From the UHGV virus genome UHGV-1351982: a stretch of DNA of 64,000 nucleotides, one strand, 5' to 3'. This document shows, piece after piece, positions 28,330 through 63,562 of the stretch; position 1 is the stretch's first letter; every line of letters starts with the position of its first letter. The position numbers and the translations under genes were made by a program. The notes under the pieces were generated by a model. That model saw only the letters and a program-made list of their open reading frames with translations. It searched no databases and was not told the DNA's origin. The DNA is from a virus.

Positions 28330-30111
28330 TTAGGTTAGGCGTTGAACTGTTACACGTAGTCTTGGCAAGAAAACAGCTGCCGCTTCTGCAGCGTGAATGA
28401 TAACACCCAACTCAACGTTGCCATTACCAAGGTTTTTAATAGTATAAATATATCCGTTCCTACGGAAAGCAAACTTATCAGGCCTACTAGCCCAAGTTTG
28501 TGTATAACTATAGGAAGTTGTACTGTGATAAGGTACTAGATATCCAGGTGGCAGAGTAAGAATCTGGTGGAATACACCATCACCAGCTGTATAACTTTGT
28601 TGACGTCTACCTTGTACCTGCCAAGCGCTACCGCCGTAAGTACGCACAGGCATTCCAGCAGTATTAAGATTACCCATAATAACTTCAGTAGTTAATATAA
28701 CGGTAGAGTGAGCATTAGGTAATCCTAACCAAACAGTGGCCAAAGGTGTATAGAAGTCACCAGCACCAGGGTAGGAAGGAGTTATATCATCACCAACATA
28801 AGTACTTGCAACGTTGCCTGGAAATAACCTGAGGGGTACAGTACTAGGACTCCACACAGGTCCATGTTCATTACCGATGGAGTTGGTATTAGTATCTACA
28901 TACCATTGTTTACCTACACCAAATTTATATAAGCTAATTTGAGAAGCTGCACCCCCATAGTTAACAGGAGACCACAACCCGCCATTACTAGAGCCGATAA
29001 ATTCACATCGTGCAGTATTATCACCAAAAACTCCGGTATACGCAGCGTTATTACCAACATACTCCATATCAGGGCGATAGCCTAAGTTTCCAAAGGCATT
29101 CTGGTTAATGAATTTATATCCTGTATTTGGTAAACTAACACCTTTAATAGTAAAGTTAGATGGAGATATTAGGATATCTGAACCGGTAAATGGATTACCA
29201 GAAACTCCCATACTACCATTAGAATAGCGCAGATTTAGCACATACCAAATAACCTTAGTTGGCGTAACGTTATACCAGTCCTGTACATATACCTTTCTAG
29301 CAGACTGAGCAGCCATATTAGAAGTAGAACCTCTACAAACATATATTTTTTTTGGATATGCAGGAGATTGGTAAAGAACGTTTACGTTATCTGGTAGTAC
29401 ACCTTTCTTACCTGCAAAGCCACGAATATTAGAATTACAAACATAAAACCAATCATGGCCTCTACCAGCAGAACCAACAGGCGCCTGCCAGTTAGGTTCC
29501 CAATAATCTGCGTTACCACCATCTAAAGGAACAGTAGAGACACCAGTTGGAAAACCCATAAGACTCCAGGCTCTGGCAATGGCTTCACCAGCAGAAACAC
29601 CACCAGGTCTAAAGATCTGGAAACCAGAGGACTGTAGTAAACTGCCTCCAGAACCTTGCCGAGCAATAGATTCCTCATGACCAAGACCACCATTATAGAT
29701 ATAGGTACCATGAGCTAAACTATCACCGATCGCAAAAGCAGATGTTACAGATAATTCAGCACCAGCACGTGGTTGGTCTTCAAAGAATGATAAGAACTGG
29801 CCAACCTGAGATTGTGTACCATTAAGGAAACCCCTATGAGTACCATTTATCTCAATAGCAGTTAATATAACTCTACCAGGATCATTGGATTTAATGTTTA
29901 TAATATCCCAAGGCATCTGAGTAACAAAGTACCCATTACCTGCATCACCTAGGGCAGCCTCATAAGTCCCATCAACTAGGACGAAGGGCATATCTGAGTG
30001 GAAGATACTATTAGTATTTGGAGAGTAGTGCTGATTTATATCACCACCATTAGCAGCGTTTAGAGATAATACAGTTTTACCATCACTAAATTTTCCTGCG
30101 AAAAAACTCAT
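28330..30111 (-). CDS. oad: receptor-binding protein (T5 pb5/oad-like)
   Basis: 593 aa; N-terminus [18 protein letters not shown]...IFHSDM resembles my recollection of T5 pb5; divergently adjacent to llp as in T5-like phages. Confidence 0.6.
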
Positions 30112-30136
30112 ACAATCTCCTTCTTTAAAAATGTAT

Positions 30137-30165
30137 TTGCTTAGATCCCTCTATTTTGCTATAAT
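30137..30165 (+). promoter_or_regulatory. early-type promoter (TTGCTT-N17-TATAAT) with ATAAATT leader upstream of llp
   Basis: Hexamers and spacing read directly; same family as minus-strand early promoters. Confidence 0.55.
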
Positions 30166-30194
30166 ATATTTATAAATTAAACAGAGGAACGATT

Positions 30195-30461
30195 ATGAAA
30201 AAGTTACTAGCTATCGTAGTTGCAGCAGTAGTGTTGACTGGTTGTGTGCCAGCTCCCGAGCCATTTTGTAGGGCATATGTGAAGTCTTATGGTCATGTTG
30301 GTGAAGAACACTACGCTTTAGATATTCGAGAAGCACGTACTGTGGGCTACCGATTCCCTAAAACTCAGTTACGCACTAAGTTTGGGTGGTGGGATTTGTC
30401 ACAGTTTGATCTCAAATATGGCGATTGCAAATTTAAACTAGAACAATCTGGTCACTTGTAA
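30195..30461 (+). CDS. llp: lipoprotein Llp-like (receptor-blocking superinfection exclusion)
   Basis: Signal peptide with lipobox LTGC; small; divergent from the receptor-binding gene as in T5. Confidence 0.6.
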   Translation: MKKLLAIVVAAVVLTGCVPAPEPFCRAYVKSYGHVGEEHYALDIREARTVGYRFPKTQLRTKFGWWDLSQFDLKYGDCKFKLEQSGHL

Positions 30462-30535
30462 TTAGTATAAAGTAAAAAGATCTCGAAGTAAACAAAAATT
30501 TTTATTTCTGGGATGAGGTACAGGTAGCAAACACA

Positions 30536-30850
30536 ATGCAAGATGAAGAAAAGTCCTTTCAGGAACCTGTTAACTTTGAAATAGATCCCAGGACTAAAGC
30601 AATACATGATGCGATTAACGAAATCATTCAAGACGTCATAGAAGATACAATGGAAGATGTGATGGGAACATCCTTCTTACTAGAAGAATCCGGCTTCGAT
30701 GAAGTAATGGATCTTATCGGGACAGTCATAATGGTTCGTGCAATTGCTAGGATATTCCAAATACCAGGACTACAGGAGAAGCAAAGAGATGTCAGACGAC
30801 AACAGAAGAAAGAACAGACGCGGGGAAGTGTACGAAAGTTGGATAAATAG
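30536..30850 (+). CDS. hypothetical acidic protein
   Basis: 104-aa ORF, acidic N-terminal half, basic C-terminus. Confidence 0.4.
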   Translation: MQDEEKSFQEPVNFEIDPRTKAIHDAINEIIQDVIEDTMEDVMGTSFLLEESGFDEVMDLIGTVIMVRAIARIFQIPGLQEKQRDVRRQQKKEQTRGSVRKLDK

Positions 30851-30923
30851 TTTCGGATTCGGGACTGTATTATTCTTTATCTTTGTACTCTTTTGGTTAG
30901 CGGCTATGGCGGGATGGTTATAA
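30738..30923 (+). CDS. possible small membrane protein (overlapping, uncertain)
   Basis: C-terminal hydrophobic helix GTVLFFIFVLFWLAAMAGWL; overlaps previous ORF in another frame. Confidence 0.25.
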   Translation: MQLLGYSKYQDYRRSKEMSDDNRRKNRRGEVYESWINSFGFGTVLFFIFVLFWLAAMAGWL

Positions 30924-31026
30924 TGGAAGTAGTAATTATTGCTTTACTAGTTGTGGTACTTATCGGGCAGTGCATCTTAGACAACCACTTAGCTCGTATC
31001 GAACGTAAGCTGCGGGGAGACAAATA

Positions 31027-31221
31027 ATGGATTGGTTAGGACTTATTACACTTGTAGTATGGCTTGTCTGGATTGTTGGATATATGACTTCACATCGTAA
31101 CCGTATACAGCGGCTAGAGGATAAAGTCACCCAGCTTAATATTAATATGGATAAGTTACTGGACTCCCAACGTAATGATCGGGCACGTATTCACCAACTT
31201 GAGAGGGAATTAGATGTTTAG
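31027..31221 (+). CDS. small membrane protein
   Basis: 64 aa with N-terminal TM helix LGLITLVVWLVWIVGY. Confidence 0.4.
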   Translation: MDWLGLITLVVWLVWIVGYMTSHRNRIQRLEDKVTQLNINMDKLLDSQRNDRARIHQLERELDV

Positions 31222-31441
31222 CTTTGTAGCTATCTTCATTATCGGGGTGCTTGCGGGAATCTTCGGAACACTCGGGGCTATTAACAAGCATCGTGAATAC
31301 GTTGCGGGAGTATCGCGGGAGCTTTCGGAAAGGGAGCGGAAGTTTGCGGAGAAACGTGCGGAGTTTGAGCGAGAGTGGTCGGATGGATCTCGGGCGTCGC
31401 AGAGGAGGTTTCGGGCTGATTCCGTGAGTTCTCCTAAGTAG
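31214..31441 (+). CDS. small membrane protein
   Basis: 75 aa with N-terminal TM helix FSFVAIFIIGVLAGIFGTLGAI. Confidence 0.4.
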   Translation: MFSFVAIFIIGVLAGIFGTLGAINKHREYVAGVSRELSERERKFAEKRAEFEREWSDGSRASQRRFRADSVSSPK

Positions 31442-31599
31442 CGCTAATTTGACTTTTGCCAAATCTCATAAGATTACACATGAAGGTGTGCCCAGAGGTT
31501 CCCTAGATGAGAATGAGTCTCATTACCGCCCCCTTACTTAGCAAGCTAATAGTCACACCATGTTATCATTACACAGTGTGACTATTTTATTTTTAATTG

Positions 31600-32334
31600 T
31601 TAGGCAACTTTTAATTTATCAATGAATTGTTGCGGTGTGGTACTATATTCCGCGCGTTCTTCCTCGGTCATACCTTCCCAACACATTTTTAAACGTTCGG
31701 CTAGGAATTGATAATCGTTATCATCATCAAGCGATTCATCAATAAAGGTTTCACCGATCAATGTTACGCCGATTGATAGGATATCGTTAACGGCTTGAGC
31801 ATCCAGCGTTTTAAATCCAGCACTTGCCGCCGCTGATAATACACCTTTATGATCATCAATCATTGTAAAATCAGCATTAGGATATAGCTGTTTAAACAGT
31901 TCAAAGTAATAAGATTTATATACAGCGTCTTTACTGTGGTATATTTCGCTAACCTTATTTGCATCAAAGTATTTATGTAATGTATCGCGGGAAAATACGC
32001 GAATATTACTATTTCCGCGCCCTCGCAAGCCTTGTTTGCGTAAATAAAAATAATCGCTTTTAGACATTAGGCGCGCGGTACAAATAATATTTAAAGTATT
32101 TGCATCATTCATACATTGGCGCATATATTCAACCAATGGCAATAAAGAATCCTGCATAATTAAATCATGCTTGCAGGCTTCGCGGGAATATTTATTTAAA
32201 TCTAAATTCCCATTATCATCAAAACAAGGCCCGACACGGTGCATTGAGTTAATGATTGTACCGTCTAAATCCCAAATCATAACGCGGGAAATATGCGGGA
32301 AAGTGCGGGTAATATTCATGTTGACTTGATTCAT
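31600..32334 (-). CDS. dmp: 5'-deoxyribonucleotidase (T5 Dmp-like, HAD-family)
   Basis: 244 aa, same length as T5 Dmp; HAD motif I VMIWDLDGTI near N-terminus. Confidence 0.6.
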   Translation of the reverse strand: MNQVNMNITRTFPHISRVMIWDLDGTIINSMHRVGPCFDDNGNLDLNKYSREACKHDLIMQDSLLPLVEYMRQCMNDANTLNIICTARLMSKSDYFYLRKQGLRGRGNSNIRVFSRDTLHKYFDANKVSEIYHSKDAVYKSYYFELFKQLYPNADFTMIDDHKGVLSAAASAGFKTLDAQAVNDILSIGVTLIGETFIDESLDDDNDYQFLAERLKMCWEGMTEEERAEYSTTPQQFIDKLKVA

Positions 32335-32421
32335 TTGTTACATTCTCCATTTAAGGGATTTAGGTTAATTCAATCTTGCCAGCTAATTATATTGGATTAG
32401 CTGGCAATGTTCAATTAACTA

Positions 32422-32814
32422 TTAATTAGTGAGGCCATACGCTAGCGCGTCACCAATAAAGCTAAGATCTTCACCATGTACGCTAGAACGAATCCCCGCG
32501 CAAGTGTAGACCATCGCGCTAGCTTCTGGATTGCAGACCGGACACGGCTTAACAACCGCAAACGCTAGACCGGATTTAAGCGCATCAATAATAATTGTTT
32601 GTACTGTTAAAGTATCAGCGTAAACACCTTTTGCTTTTGTATGGCTTGCCACTTTGCCGGTATCATAAGCAAAGGTAGTAACCTGCAAAACGTCGTTATA
32701 ATTCAGCAAATCGAAATTAACTTGCCCCGCCTCGACGTGATAACGTTCGCCATTAGAATAAACTAGAACGATGGAAGAAGTAGCGCGGTCAAAAGGAATG
32801 CTTTGGTTTTTCAT
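32422..32814 (-). CDS. hypothetical pre-early protein
   Basis: 130-aa ORF between dmp and A1-like gene. Confidence 0.4.
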   Translation of the reverse strand: MKNQSIPFDRATSSIVLVYSNGERYHVEAGQVNFDLLNYNDVLQVTTFAYDTGKVASHTKAKGVYADTLTVQTIIIDALKSGLAFAVVKPCPVCNPEASAMVYTCAGIRSSVHGEDLSFIGDALAYGLTN

Positions 32815-61203: not shown

Positions 61204-61279
61204 TGGCTGGAGAAGGAGGAATCGAACCTACCATTAACGGAGTCAAAGGCCGTTGTGCTAACCATTACACTACTCTCCA
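61204..61279 (-). tRNA. tRNA-Gln (UUG), encoded CCA
   Basis: U1-A72 pair and G73 as in E. coli tRNA-Gln; anticodon loop CTTTGAC. Confidence 0.5.
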
Positions 61280-61285
61280 AGTATT

Positions 61286-61361
61286 TGGCTGGGATGCCAC
61301 GGATCGAACGTGGAACCTTCGGAGTCAGAGGCCGACGATCTGCCAATTGATCTACATCCCA
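61286..61361 (-). tRNA. tRNA-Gln (CUG), encoded CCA
   Basis: U1-A72, G73; anticodon loop CTCTGAC; T-arm CCACG-TTCGATC-CGTGG. Confidence 0.5.
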
Positions 61362-61675: not shown

Positions 61676-61752
61676 TGGGGTGGCTAGTGGAATTCGAATC
61701 CACATAGGCCTGATTCACAATCAGGATCATTAACCAATTATGATATAGCCAC
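61676..61752 (-). tRNA. tRNA-His (GUG), encoded CCA
   Basis: Manual fold: D-stem TCAT/ATGA, anticodon arm CCTGA-TTGTGAA-TCAGG, T-arm GTGGA-TTCGAAT-TCCAC, C73. Confidence 0.6.
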
Positions 61753-62116
61753 AATTGAAAACCATTGAGGAGTAGCGAACTCTCTACACTAGAAGCTTGC
61801 ATGCTCATACCTAGTGATTAGACCTAGCAAATAGGCGCTACAAGTAACGACCCTAAGTGGTAGACTCAAACAGACAATGATTTTCAATTGTGGCGGCTCT
61901 CCGAAACTCATCACACTAACAACTAGTTGATTACTTCTGGATTCTCGCCCAGAAAATTCTCTAGAAAGGTGCACCGTTACTCTTTGAGCCATTGATGATG
62001 GGATGGTCTCTCATCCCCACTAACTACTTAATCCTTACGATTCGTCGGTTAGCACGAGCAGCAACCCTTCATATATAATTTATAGTGCCCAGAAGGTCAT
62101 TAGAAGCACTTTATCA

Positions 62117-62246
62117 AGAAGTAGAAGGACTCGAACCTTCAAGAGATAGACCATTTATCTCAGCCTCGTTTTCGGGTATCTTATGAGGAGTGGATGTTCC
62201 CCTTACGCCCTTTAGGAAGCCCCGTCTACCGATTCCGGCATACTTC
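62117..62246 (-). ncRNA. tRNA-like structured RNA (about 130 nt; T-arm and acceptor pairing but no canonical cloverleaf)
   Basis: GAAGG-TTCGAGT-CCTTC T-arm, acceptor-like pairing GAAGTAT/CTACTTC about 115 nt apart, internal 6-bp hairpin GAGATA-AATGGTC-TATCTC; no long ORF. Confidence 0.3.
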
Positions 62247-62255
62247 AAGAATTAT

Positions 62256-62459
62256 TTAAAACTTGTAACCTTTGGGAACCTTATCTTTAACACCGATATA
62301 CTCAGCTTGGATGTAGTATGTTGGCACATGATCTTTAGGTAGATCTTTATTTACATCATTAACTTCCATCAAGGCTTCGGCCTCGGTGTCAAATGGGCGA
62401 TACCAGATTTCACCACCCCAGCCACGTTCACTTTCAGTATACTTAACAATGTGTTTCAT
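62256..62459 (-). CDS. hypothetical small protein (start trimmed to MKHIVKY)
   Basis: ORF-track start at 62510 would overlap tRNA-Ser; internal Met at 62459 has upstream AGGAAAAC. Confidence 0.35.
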   Translation of the reverse strand: MKHIVKYTESERGWGGEIWYRPFDTEAEALMEVNDVNKDLPKDHVPTYYIQAEYIGVKDKVPKGYKF

Positions 62460-62477
62460 AAGGTTTTCCTTATTAGT

Positions 62478-62567
62478 TGGAGGAAGGTAATGGAGTCGAA
62501 CCATCACCATATCGCTACAGCGGGCAGGTTTTCAAGACCTGTTACATACCACTATGTCCTACCTTCC
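62478..62567 (-). tRNA. tRNA-Ser (UGA), type II with long variable arm, encoded CCA
   Basis: Perfect acceptor GGAAGGT/ACCTTCC, anticodon arm CAGGT-CTTGAAA-ACCTG, variable hairpin CGCT-GT-AGCG. Confidence 0.6.
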
Positions 62568-63081: not shown

Positions 63082-63162
63082 TGGTAGGGATGGAGGGACT
63101 CGAACCCACACCCGAAGACTAGAACCTAAATCTAGCGCGTCTGCCAATTTCGCCACATCCCC
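63082..63162 (-). tRNA. tRNA-Leu (UAG), encoded CCA
   Basis: Anticodon arm CTAGA-TTTAGGT-TCTAG, extended variable arm, acceptor GGGGATG/CATCCCT. Confidence 0.5.
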
Positions 63163-63407: not shown

Positions 63408-63483
63408 TGGTGGAGTCACTCAGAATTGAACTGAGTTCCACTGCTTGCAAGGCAGTAAGTTTAACCAAATAACCTATGACCCC
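63408..63483 (-). tRNA. tRNA-Cys (GCA), encoded CCA
   Basis: Anticodon arm ACTGC-CTTGCAA-GCAGT, T-arm CTCAG-TTCAATT-CTGAG. Confidence 0.6.
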
Positions 63484-63488
63484 GAATT

Positions 63489-63562
63489 TGGTGGAGAAAG
63501 AGGGAGTTGAACCCTCGTCTTCTGCGTGCAAAGCAGATGTTCTACCATTAAACTATATCCCC
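63489..63562 (-). tRNA. tRNA-Ala (UGC), encoded CCA
   Basis: Anticodon arm TCTGC-TTTGCAC-GCAGA, T-arm GAGGG-TTCAACT-CCCTC. Confidence 0.55.

What the first reader, a model, noticed from the sequence alone, without database searches (positions are those of the whole stretch)
62117..62246. tRNA-like element too long for a canonical tRNA
Within the tRNA cluster, a roughly 130-nt segment has a good T-arm (GAAGG-TTCGAGT-CCTTC) and acceptor-like pairing between ends about 115 nt apart, with a strong internal hairpin, but no standard D or anticodon arm and no encoded CCA, unlike all 13 neighbouring tRNAs. It could be a tRNA interrupted by an insertion, a degenerate tRNA, or a small stable RNA of unknown function.
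Basis: seen in the sequence. Interest (0 to 1): 0.4.

Follow-up and report, generated by a model that had tools for sequence, protein, structure and literature searches.

The report
T5 RNA1: tRNA-shaped stable phage RNA
This is this phage's copy of "RNA1", a small stable RNA already annotated in phage T5: a leucine-tRNA-shaped molecule whose anticodon loop is replaced by a conserved 48-base arm, so it cannot decode, and its job is still unknown.

Summary
The element is real and lies on the minus strand at about 62249..62117. It aligns end to end with the T5 feature rna1/RNA1, annotated as "tRNA-like stable RNA with unknown functions", and sits in the same place: after tRNA-Ser(UGA), before RNAI, RNAIII and tRNA-His.

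About 490 T5-like phage records carry it, and no bacterial genome does.

Across 29 distinct homologs, a seven-helix structure is 99.4% paired, and 13 of 34 pairs show compensatory changes. The structure has:
- a 6-bp acceptor stem;
- an anticodon-type stem extended into a 60-nt arm with an almost invariant apical loop, ACAUCCAC;
- a 6-bp variable-arm hairpin with loop AAUGGUC;
- a T arm.

No CCA is encoded, although all 13 neighbouring tRNAs encode one.

Replacing the distal 48 nt with a 7-nt loop makes ARAGORN call an ordinary 91-nt class II tRNA. A covariance model of the element hits tRNA-Leu genes best.

It is not an intron-containing tRNA, a pseudogene, a tmRNA or a protein gene.

Most likely the tRNA body lets the host tRNA machinery excise and stabilise the RNA, and the long arm is the working part, with an unknown partner. 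A viable T5 deletion removes it, so it is dispensable in the laboratory.

The entity is already known; the function is still open.

The parts
62112..62250 (-). Whole conserved block: the ortholog of T5 RNA1. The tRNA-shaped body runs 62247..62117. The conserved flanks are UCUUG on the 5' side and CUUGAUA on the 3' side.
   Evidence: End-to-end alignment with T5 rna1, NC_005859 30501-30644. Covariance model R1 scores 174 bits in the window and 172 bits in T5. About 490 T5-like phage records hold it.
62241..62246 (-). Acceptor stem, 5' strand (GAAGUA)
   Evidence: Pairs with 62118-62123. Four of the 6 pairs show changes on both sides. The Klebsiella-phage versions have a wholly different sequence (AUGCCG/CGGGGU) and still pair at 5 of 6 positions.
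62118..62123 (-). Acceptor stem, 3' strand (UACUUC), followed by UUGAUA and no CCA
62222..62238 (-). D arm of class II type: stem CCG/CGG, loop GAAUCGGUAGA
   Evidence: Nearly invariant in 29 homologs. ARAGORN draws it as the D arm once the long arm is shortened. RNAalifold offers an alternative hairpin, UGCCG/CGGUA, from the same bases.
62162..62221 (-). Long arm, 60 nt, in place of the anticodon arm. P1 pairs 62216-62221 with 62162-62167; P2 pairs 62208-62210 with 62174-62176; P3 pairs 62198-62202 with 62185-62189. Two A-rich internal loops separate the helices.
   Evidence: P1 has 3, P2 has 2 and P3 has 3 pairs with compensatory changes, and 98.6-100% of cells are paired. RNAalifold predicts the same helices independently.
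62190..62197 (-). Apical loop ACAUCCAC of the long arm. It is invariant apart from one A/G position.
   Evidence: Alignment A2, columns 60-67
62143..62161 (-). Variable-arm hairpin GAGAUA-AAUGGUC-UAUCUC: a 6-bp stem and a 7-nt loop conserved in 28 of 29 homologs.
   Evidence: The pair at columns 99/111 occurs as A-U, U-A and C-G. ARAGORN places the hairpin as the long variable arm.
62124..62140 (-). T arm GAAGG-UUCGAGU-CCUUC
   Evidence: The terminator scan also picks it up, as a chance look-alike.

Best explanation
The segment is the ortholog of phage T5 RNA1. It is a non-decoding small RNA derived from a leucine-type (class II) tRNA.

Shown here:
- It keeps the acceptor stem, D arm, long variable arm and T arm of a tRNA.
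- The anticodon loop is replaced by a conserved 48-nt extension, giving a 60-nt rod with two A-rich internal loops and an almost invariant 8-nt apical loop.
- It encodes no CCA.
- It has a U.U at the 1:72 position and U at the discriminator position.

Inferred:
- It is transcribed with the tRNA cluster as part of a polycistronic precursor.
- The host tRNA machinery (RNase P and the 3' trimming enzymes) recognises the tRNA-shaped body, cuts the RNA out and leaves it metabolically stable. This would be a natural version of the engineered 'tRNA scaffold'.
- The long arm, and perhaps the conserved variable-arm loop, is the working part. It would bind a partner, protein or RNA, that is not yet identified.
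- The function is accessory. It is not needed for growth on laboratory E. coli, so it most plausibly matters in particular hosts or against particular host responses.
For: Identity:
- T5 RefSeq annotates rna1 'RNA1, tRNA-like stable RNA with unknown functions' between tRNA-Ser1(UGA) with a small ORF and RNAI/RNAIII/tRNA-His.
- The window segment aligns with it end to end, in the same gene order.
- Model R1 scores 174 bits in the window and 172 bits in T5.

Structure:
- 99.4% of cells are paired, 13 of 34 pairs are compensatory, and 0 of 500 shuffles reach this.
- RNAalifold predicts the same helices independently, apart from the D region.

tRNA body:
- With the distal 48 nt swapped for a 7-nt loop, ARAGORN in default mode calls a 91-nt class II tRNA with all arms in place.
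- The best non-self hits of R1 are tRNA-Leu genes: 41 bits in the window, 39.7 in T5 and 31.6 in T4. Ser, His and Tyr follow.

Selection on the RNA:
- About 490 records hold it.
- The loops are almost invariant while the stems covary.
- In Klebsiella phages the flanks are unrelated, but the core is 92% identical.

Not coding: the overlapping 44-codon ORF is broken by stops or a frameshift in most homologs.

Scaffold principle: tRNA bodies carrying an insert in place of the anticodon stem-loop are processed and kept stable in E. coli (PMC3753655).

Dispensability: the viable T5 deletion 29191-32442 covers RNA1 at 30501-30644 (PMC11464382).
Against: - No expression, end-mapping or binding data can be obtained here. 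That the T5 RNA is 'stable' rests on the record's annotation only.
- No partner was identified. The complement of the apical loop, GTGGATGT, occurs 7 times in the window against 1.4 expected. One of the 7 is the element itself, and the others lie mid-ORF on both strands with no common position.
- The 5' end annotated in T5 (CUU-GGAAUA...) lies 3 nt upstream of the acceptor stem, and the annotated 3' end 13 nt downstream. Processing may therefore not be strictly tRNA-like.
- The strongly conserved D and T arms would also fit a role for the tRNA body itself as a mimic, not just as a scaffold.
Confidence: 0.55

Rival explanations
1. tRNA mimic or decoy. The tRNA-Leu-like body is itself the active part and titrates a host tRNA-binding factor, such as a defence nuclease, a synthetase or a modification or processing enzyme. 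The long arm mainly keeps the RNA off the ribosome.
For: - The D and T arms and the elbow nucleotides are almost invariant.
- The body resembles tRNA-Leu.
- T5 tRNAs are known counter-defence tools: tRNA-Lys acts against PARIS (PMC11464382).
Against: - The loops of the long arm are as conserved as the tRNA body. A mere spacer would not need that.
- Nucleases that act on the anticodon loop would find no anticodon loop.
- Of the three cloned segments of the T5 deletion 29191-32442, only the one with tRNA-Pro/fMet/Lys/Val rescued infection of PARIS+ cells. RNA1 is therefore not the PARIS suppressor.
- U at the discriminator position and U.U at 1:72 differ from what E. coli LeuRS requires (A73; my own knowledge, not tested).
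Confidence: 0.2
2. Processing 'punctuation' element. The tRNA shape exists only to direct RNase P and 3' cuts that free neighbouring RNAs (tRNA-Ser, RNAI, or the upstream small-ORF mRNA). The excised RNA has no function of its own.
For: - In many phages it abuts the CCA end of tRNA-Ser within 2-3 nt.
- In T5 it is annotated as contiguous with RNAI.
Against: - Punctuation needs only an acceptor/T minihelix. It would not need a 60-nt arm with covarying helices and nearly invariant loops.
- In Klebsiella phages the element lies in a different neighbourhood and is still conserved.
Confidence: 0.1
3. Degenerate tRNA gene: a dead tRNA-Leu copy drifting neutrally.
For: - No anticodon loop and no CCA are present, and tRNA finders miss it.
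Against: - It is kept in about 490 genomes at 79-100% identity.
- 13 of 34 pairs show compensatory changes and 99.4% of cells are paired.
- The inserted arm is conserved.
- T5 annotates it as a stable RNA.
Confidence: 0.04
4. Functional tRNA with an intron in the anticodon loop, removed to give a decoding tRNA (Phe or Leu).
For: - ARAGORN in intron mode reports 'tRNA-Phe(aaa), 41-nt intron' in the window and 'tRNA-Leu(taa), 40-nt intron' in T5-type copies.
Against: - The predicted anticodon and intron position differ between homologs: aaa, taa and aac, at positions 33-39.
- 40-48 nt is far shorter than the bacterial self-splicing group I introns known in tRNA genes (my own knowledge), and no Rfam intron family matches.
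- No CCA is encoded, unlike every real tRNA of the cluster.
- T5 annotates a 144-nt RNA.
Confidence: 0.03
5. Small protein gene: the 44-codon ORF at 62114-62248 (minus strand), annotated as 'hypothetical protein' in many GenBank records.
For: - The ORF exists in the window.
- Many records place a hypothetical protein over this stretch.
Against: - It starts with TTG.
- The frame holds stop codons in most homologs, and a 1-nt indel separates the sequence types.
- The substitution pattern follows RNA pairing.
Confidence: 0.01

Closest known systems
Phage T5 RNA1 (gene rna1, locus tag T5s03, NC_005859 30501-30644), 'tRNA-like stable RNA with unknown functions'
   Same: - It is the ortholog: end-to-end alignment at about 79% identity, with the same helices and the same nearly invariant loops.
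- It holds the same position, between tRNA-Ser(UGA) and RNAI/RNAIII/tRNA-His.
   Different: - The acceptor stem, P1, P2 and P3 carry compensatory substitutions.
- A 1-nt indel lies in the internal loop.
- In this window an unrelated small ORF (62259-62459) precedes it in place of T5.063.
- An extra 114-nt conserved element separates it from RNAI.
Class II tRNA-Leu (the phage's own tRNA-Leu(UAG) at 63082-63162; T5 and T4 tRNA-Leu)
   Same: - It shares the acceptor stem, a 3-bp D stem with a GGAAUYGGUAGAC-type loop, an anticodon-type stem, a long variable arm and the T arm.
- tRNA-Leu genes are the best non-self hits of the RNA1 model (31.6-41 bits).
- ARAGORN accepts the trimmed body as a class II tRNA.
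   Different: - There is no 7-nt anticodon loop; 48 nt stand in its place.
- No CCA is encoded.
- It has U.U at 1:72 and U at the discriminator position.
- The variable-arm loop has 7 nt.
- It is not found by ARAGORN in default mode or by Rfam RF00005.
Phage T4 species 1 RNA (rnaC, 139 nt) and species 2 RNA (rnaD), small stable RNAs of the T4 tRNA cluster
   Same: - They are also encoded inside a phage tRNA cluster and annotated as small stable RNAs.
- Their roles are still unknown (PMC3014915; PMC9697503).
- The predicted fold of rnaC has the same layout: a terminal stem, a long rod-like arm, a long hairpin and a GGGUUCGAAUCCC T arm.
   Different: - There is no detectable homology: model R1 gives 6.7 bits, E = 5, on rnaC.
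- The rnaC fold shows no D arm.
- The rnaC fold is a single-sequence prediction, not tested by covariation here.
Phage T5 RNA2 (rna2, T5s06), the second 'tRNA-like stable RNA' of T5
   Same: Its predicted fold is also an acceptor-like stem, a D-like hairpin, an extended central arm, a small hairpin and a CAGG-UUCGAAU-CCUG T arm. It has the same annotation class.
   Different: It is not a detectable paralog; only the T loop matches R1, at 5.7 bits. It lies outside this window.
Engineered 'tRNA scaffold' RNAs (Ponchon and Dardel)
   Same: The design is the same: acceptor stem, T arm and D arm are kept, and the anticodon stem-loop is replaced by a hairpin insert. This makes the RNA recognised, precisely processed and stable in E. 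coli (PMC3753655).
   Different: Those RNAs are artificial. For RNA1 the processing and stability are inferred, not measured here.
tmRNA and bacterial YrlA (Y RNA-like) tRNA mimics
   Same: They are non-decoding RNAs with a tRNA-like module.
   Different: - There is no ARAGORN tmRNA call and no Rfam match at E up to 10.
- tmRNA lacks a D arm of this kind and carries a coding region and pseudoknots.
- In YrlA the RNA ends lie in the long stem, not in the acceptor stem (my own knowledge).

Membership tests
T5 RNA1 (rna1) orthologs | Sequence and structure homology to NC_005859 30501-30644 | tested here: met
   It aligns over the full length. Model R1 scores 174.4 bits in the window and 172.2 bits in T5.
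T5 RNA1 (rna1) orthologs | Position in the tRNA cluster, downstream of tRNA-Ser(UGA) and upstream of RNAI, RNAIII and tRNA-His, on the same strand | tested here: met
   The window differs by an unrelated small ORF upstream and a 114-nt extra element downstream.
T5 RNA1 (rna1) orthologs | Accumulates as a stable small RNA in infected cells | not testable with these tools
   Only the T5 record's annotation says so. No expression data are available for this phage.
Canonical tRNA (Rfam RF00005 / ARAGORN) | Cloverleaf with a 7-nt anticodon loop, recognised by tRNA models | tested here: not met
   There is no ARAGORN default call and no RF00005 match even at E up to 10. A 48-nt extension replaces the loop.
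Canonical tRNA (Rfam RF00005 / ARAGORN) | Acceptor stem, D arm, T arm and (for class II) a long variable arm in tRNA register | tested here: met
   ARAGORN draws all of them once the distal arm is replaced by 7 nt. The helices are supported by covariation.
Canonical tRNA (Rfam RF00005 / ARAGORN) | Encoded 3' CCA, as in every tRNA of this cluster | tested here: not met
   All 13 tRNAs end in CCA. The element continues UUGAUA.
Intron-containing tRNA | A consistent anticodon and intron position across homologs, and an intron of a known self-splicing or enzyme-spliced type | tested here: not met
   ARAGORN in intron mode gives Phe-aaa, Leu-taa or Val-aac, with introns at positions 33-39. No Rfam intron family matches.
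tmRNA | tRNA-Ala-like acceptor/T domain plus a tag-peptide reading frame and pseudoknots | tested here: not met
   ARAGORN in tmRNA mode finds none, and Rfam finds none.
T4 species 1 RNA (rnaC) family | Detectable sequence and structure homology to T4 rnaC | tested here: not met
   Model R1 scores 6.7 bits, E = 5, on L053 2902-3010. Only the overall layout is alike.
Protein-coding gene ('hypothetical protein' in many records) | An open reading frame conserved across homologs | tested here: not met
   Stops or a frameshift occur in most of the 29 homologs.

The most novel reading that the evidence does not exclude
RNA1 is a natural 'tRNA-scaffolded' effector RNA. A phage turned a tRNA-Leu gene into a carrier that host enzymes excise and stabilise, and its nearly invariant long-arm loops (ACAUCCAC and the A-rich internal loops) bind and neutralise a specific host factor, for example a tRNA-directed defence nuclease or another RNA-binding defence protein. 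Together with T5 RNA2 and T4 species 1 RNA, it would then define a class of phage anti-host RNAs built on tRNA bodies.
Probability: 0.12. Interest if true: 0.75.

Novelty: already known. Interest (0 to 1): 0.33.

Why it matters
As an object it is not new. T5 RNA1 is annotated in the reference genome, and this is its ortholog.

It still matters in two ways.
- It is unannotated, or mis-annotated as a 'hypothetical protein', in almost every T5-like genome listed by the searches, so the comparative structure here can correct those records.
- Its function has stayed unknown, as has that of the analogous T4 RNAs. Phage tRNAs are now recognised as counter-defence tools. A strongly conserved, non-decoding, tRNA-Leu-derived RNA with a conserved 'payload' arm is therefore a well-defined candidate for pull-down and host-range experiments.

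Tried and rejected
- **Rfam:** a whole-window scan at gathering thresholds, and a scan of 61700-62520 at E up to 10. Only chance matches appeared over the element (mir-2780, 14 bits).
- **ARAGORN:** default and tmRNA modes gave nothing. Intron mode gave a 'tRNA-Phe(aaa)' with a 41-nt intron. I rejected this because the call changes between homologs.
- **Single-sequence folding energy:** not significant (z = -0.99).
- **Host origin:** blastn of the element against 5,426 E. coli genomes found no match at E up to 10.
- **Paralogy with the phage's class II tRNAs:** pairwise alignment gave only generic similarity of about 70%. The covariance model ranks tRNA-Leu first.
- **Homology with T5 RNA2 and T4 rnaC/rnaD:** none detectable.
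- **Wider distribution:** two-loop pattern scans of IMG/VR, metagenome and GTDB genome contigs returned only T5-like contigs plus three chance hits (L041, L051, L052). blastn with the most divergent copy (Pectobacterium phage DU_PP_V) found the same set of about 490 records.
- **Antisense target search:** GTGGATGT is over-represented (7 against 1.4 expected), but the sites share no consistent context.
- **Own promoter or terminator:** promoter-like sites are not enriched. The one just upstream (62278..62251) is absent where the RNA abuts tRNA-Ser. The only terminator-like hit is the T arm itself.
- **Literature:** no held paper describes T5 RNA1. The 2018 T5 deletion-mutant paper is not held.

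Full report
**1. What is there**

All 13 tRNA genes that ARAGORN finds in the window lie on the minus strand between 59819 and 63562. Read on that strand, the flagged segment is:

5'-UCUU GAAGUA UG CCG GAAUCGGUAGA CGG GGCUUC CUAAA GGG CGUAA GGGGA ACAUCCAC UCCUC AUAAGAUA CCC GAAAAC GAGGCU GAGAUA AAUGGUC UAUCUC UU GAAGG UUCGAGU CCUUC UACUUC UUGAUA-3'

- No CCA follows the acceptor stem, whereas every one of the 13 tRNAs ends in CCA.
- ARAGORN in default mode, Rfam at gathering thresholds, and Rfam at E up to 10 all fail to call a tRNA or any other family here.
- The minimum-free-energy fold of the single sequence is no better than that of shuffled sequence (z = -0.99). The single sequence alone therefore proves little.

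**2. It is the ortholog of a known RNA**

blastn against 50,697 phage records finds the segment in about 490 records. All are T5-like phages (Demerecviridae) of Salmonella, Escherichia, Klebsiella, Citrobacter, Shigella, Yersinia and Pectobacterium, at 79-100% identity.

In nearly all of the records listed, the stretch is unannotated or carries a 'hypothetical protein'.

The T5 reference record is the exception. Between tRNA-Ser1(UGA) plus a small ORF (T5.063) and tRNA-His, it annotates three misc_RNAs:
- rna1, 'RNA1, tRNA-like stable RNA with unknown functions' (30501-30644);
- rnaI;
- rnaIII.

The window segment aligns end to end with T5 rna1 and is followed by clear RNAI and RNAIII homologs and then tRNA-His.

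Pattern scans of IMG/VR, metagenome contigs and one genome per bacterial species returned only T5-like contigs, plus three unrelated chance matches. blastn against 5,426 complete E. coli genomes found nothing.

**3. Structure**

I aligned 29 distinct homologs (A2). They comprise three main sequence types, the Klebsiella (Sugarlandvirus) form and Pectobacterium phage DU_PP_V. I then scored a seven-helix model on the alignment.
- 99.4% of 986 cells form standard pairs.
- 13 of 34 pairs change on both sides.
- 0 of 500 shuffles reach the observed values.
- When the 3' partners are slid by 1-3 columns, pairing falls to 41-52%, with at most 3 compensatory pairs.

RNAalifold independently predicts the same helices. 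The one difference is the D region, which it draws as an alternative hairpin from the same invariant bases.

The helices with compensatory changes are:
- the acceptor stem, in 4 of 6 pairs; the Klebsiella copies use a completely different sequence, AUGCCG/CGGGGU, and still pair at 5 of 6 positions;
- P1, P2 and P3 of the long arm, in 3, 2 and 3 pairs;
- the variable-arm hairpin, in 1 pair that occurs as A-U, U-A and C-G.

The D and T stems hardly vary, so covariation says nothing about them either way.

The unpaired parts are the most conserved. The apical loop ACAUCCAC is invariant apart from one A/G position. The variable-arm loop AAUGGUC is the same in 28 of 29 sequences. Single A and U residues of the two internal loops are invariant.

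**4. The body is a class II, leucine-type tRNA**

- When the distal 48 nt of the long arm are replaced by any 7-nt loop, ARAGORN in default mode calls a regular 91-nt class II tRNA. It has a 7-position acceptor stem (U.U at 1:72), U8, a 3-bp D stem, an anticodon stem, a long variable arm and a T arm.
- I built a covariance model from A2 (R1) and searched the window, 14 kb of T5 and 8 kb of T4 with filters off.
  - It scores the RNA1 copies at 142-174 bits.
  - The best non-self hits are tRNA-Leu genes: 41 bits for the window's tRNA-Leu(UAG), 39.7 for T5 and 31.6 for T4.
  - tRNA-Ser, His and Tyr follow.
- Plain pairwise alignment with the phage's class II tRNAs shows only generic similarity of about 70%. 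The descent from tRNA-Leu is therefore likely but old.

**5. What it is not**

- **Not an intron-containing tRNA.** In intron mode ARAGORN produces Phe(aaa), Leu(taa) or Val(aac), with 40-41-nt 'introns' at positions 33-39, depending on the homolog. No Rfam intron family matches. T5 annotates a 144-nt RNA.
- **Not a tmRNA**.
- **Not a protein gene.** The overlapping 44-codon ORF holds stops or is frameshifted in most homologs.
- **Not a decaying pseudogene.** The inserted arm itself is under RNA-level constraint.

**6. How it probably works**

The shown facts are:
- a tRNA-shaped body;
- no anticodon loop;
- no encoded CCA;
- a conserved extra arm;
- a position inside a tightly packed, same-strand tRNA cluster, often only 2-3 nt after the CCA of tRNA-Ser, with no convincing promoter or terminator of its own.

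From these I infer two things.
- The RNA is made as part of the polycistronic tRNA precursor.
- The host tRNA-processing enzymes release it, and its tRNA fold protects it from decay.

This is the principle exploited by engineered tRNA scaffolds, in which the anticodon stem-loop is replaced by a hairpin insert (PMC3753655). On this reading the long arm with its nearly invariant loops is the functional payload.

The partner is unknown. The complement of the apical loop is over-represented in the window (7 against 1.4 expected). One copy is the element itself, and the rest sit mid-ORF on both strands with no common context. I do not count this as a target.

The RNA is dispensable in the laboratory. 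The viable T5 variant with deletion 29191-32442 lacks the RNA1 interval. Of the three cloned pieces of that deletion, only the piece with tRNA-Pro/fMet/Lys/Val restored growth on PARIS+ cells (PMC11464382; coordinates). That points to an accessory, probably host-dependent, role that is not PARIS suppression.

The main rival is that the tRNA body itself acts as a decoy for a tRNA-binding host factor. I cannot exclude this, and I rate it at about 0.2.

**7. Comparison with known RNAs**

- **Membership:** it is a member, as an ortholog, of T5 RNA1.
- **Analogs, not detectable homologs:** T5 RNA2 and T4 species 1 RNA (rnaC). Their predicted folds have the same layout of terminal stem, long arm, hairpin and T arm, but R1 does not detect them. 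The roles of T4 RNAC and RNAD are also still unknown (PMC3014915; PMC9697503).

**8. Verdict**

The entity is already known and annotated in T5, and its function is an old open question. What this analysis adds is a covariation-supported structure, the leucine-tRNA origin of the body, the exclusion of the intron, pseudogene and protein readings, and the distribution.

Interest is modest: a specialist would recognise the RNA. It could rise if the payload-arm hypothesis is tested.

Noticed in passing
window 62003-62116 (minus strand): The 114 nt or so between the RNA1 and RNAI homologs are absent from T5, beppo and HildyBeyeler. They are themselves a conserved, never-annotated element, found in 71 phage records (36 Klebsiella, 26 Salmonella, 4 Escherichia, 1 Aeromonas, and others) at 76-100% identity. 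On 6 diverse copies RNAalifold predicts hairpins in which 15 of 22 pairs keep pairing through changes on both sides. There is no Rfam match, and blastn found no similarity to the T5 tRNA-cluster region that holds its annotated stable RNAs. In Klebsiella phage Roth37 it occupies the tRNA-Ser/tRNA-His gap, which holds RNA1 in T5. It looks like a further, undescribed structured small RNA of the tRNA cluster.
   Followed up: partly
window 61891-61990 and 61753-61886 (minus strand): These are homologs of the T5 stable RNAs RNAI and RNAIII ('stable RNA with unknown functions'), directly upstream of tRNA-His. RNAI has paired ends (GGCUC...GAGCC) followed by an encoded GCCA, like a tRNA 3' end. The ends of both RNAs are highly conserved, while the middle of the RNAIII homolog is diverged and longer than in T5.
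   Followed up: partly
window 62259-62459 (minus strand): A 67-codon ORF (MKHIVKYTESERGW...) lies between tRNA-Ser(UGA) and RNA1. T5 has a different, unrelated ORF (T5.063) at the same place: BLASTP gives no alignment. Many relatives have no ORF there at all, with RNA1 abutting tRNA-Ser. The slot appears to be a variable cassette.
   Followed up: partly
public records of T5-like phages (hits H1-H130): RNA1 is annotated as an RNA in T5. In the records listed it is otherwise unannotated or covered by a spurious 'hypothetical protein' CDS. The record of phage SUT_E1620 also carries an implausible two-piece 'tRNA-Gly' feature spanning 3.8 kb across this region.
   Followed up: no
window 9555, 20693, 39476, 43002, 48706, 53305: GTGGATGT, the exact complement of the RNA1 apical loop, occurs 7 times in the window (one copy is the element itself) against 1.4 expected; 0 of 100 shuffles reach 7. 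Three sites share the longer form TGTGGATGTA. All lie inside ORFs, on both strands, with no common position. This is unexplained and probably compositional.
   Followed up: partly
L053 2909-3047 (T4 rnaC) and L004 6960-7084 (T5 RNA2): The predicted folds of T4 species 1 RNA (z = -4.6) and T5 RNA2 show the same layout as RNA1: a terminal stem, a long central arm, a hairpin and a canonical T arm. This suggests that tRNA-bodied stable RNAs arose more than once in phage tRNA clusters.
   Followed up: partly
window 63408-63483 and 63489-63562; 61204-61279 and 61286-61361: There are two adjacent tRNA-Ala(UGC) genes and two adjacent tRNA-Gln genes (UUG and CUG). T5 annotates a single tRNA-Ala at the corresponding place and marks its second tRNA-Gln as a pseudogene.
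   Followed up: no
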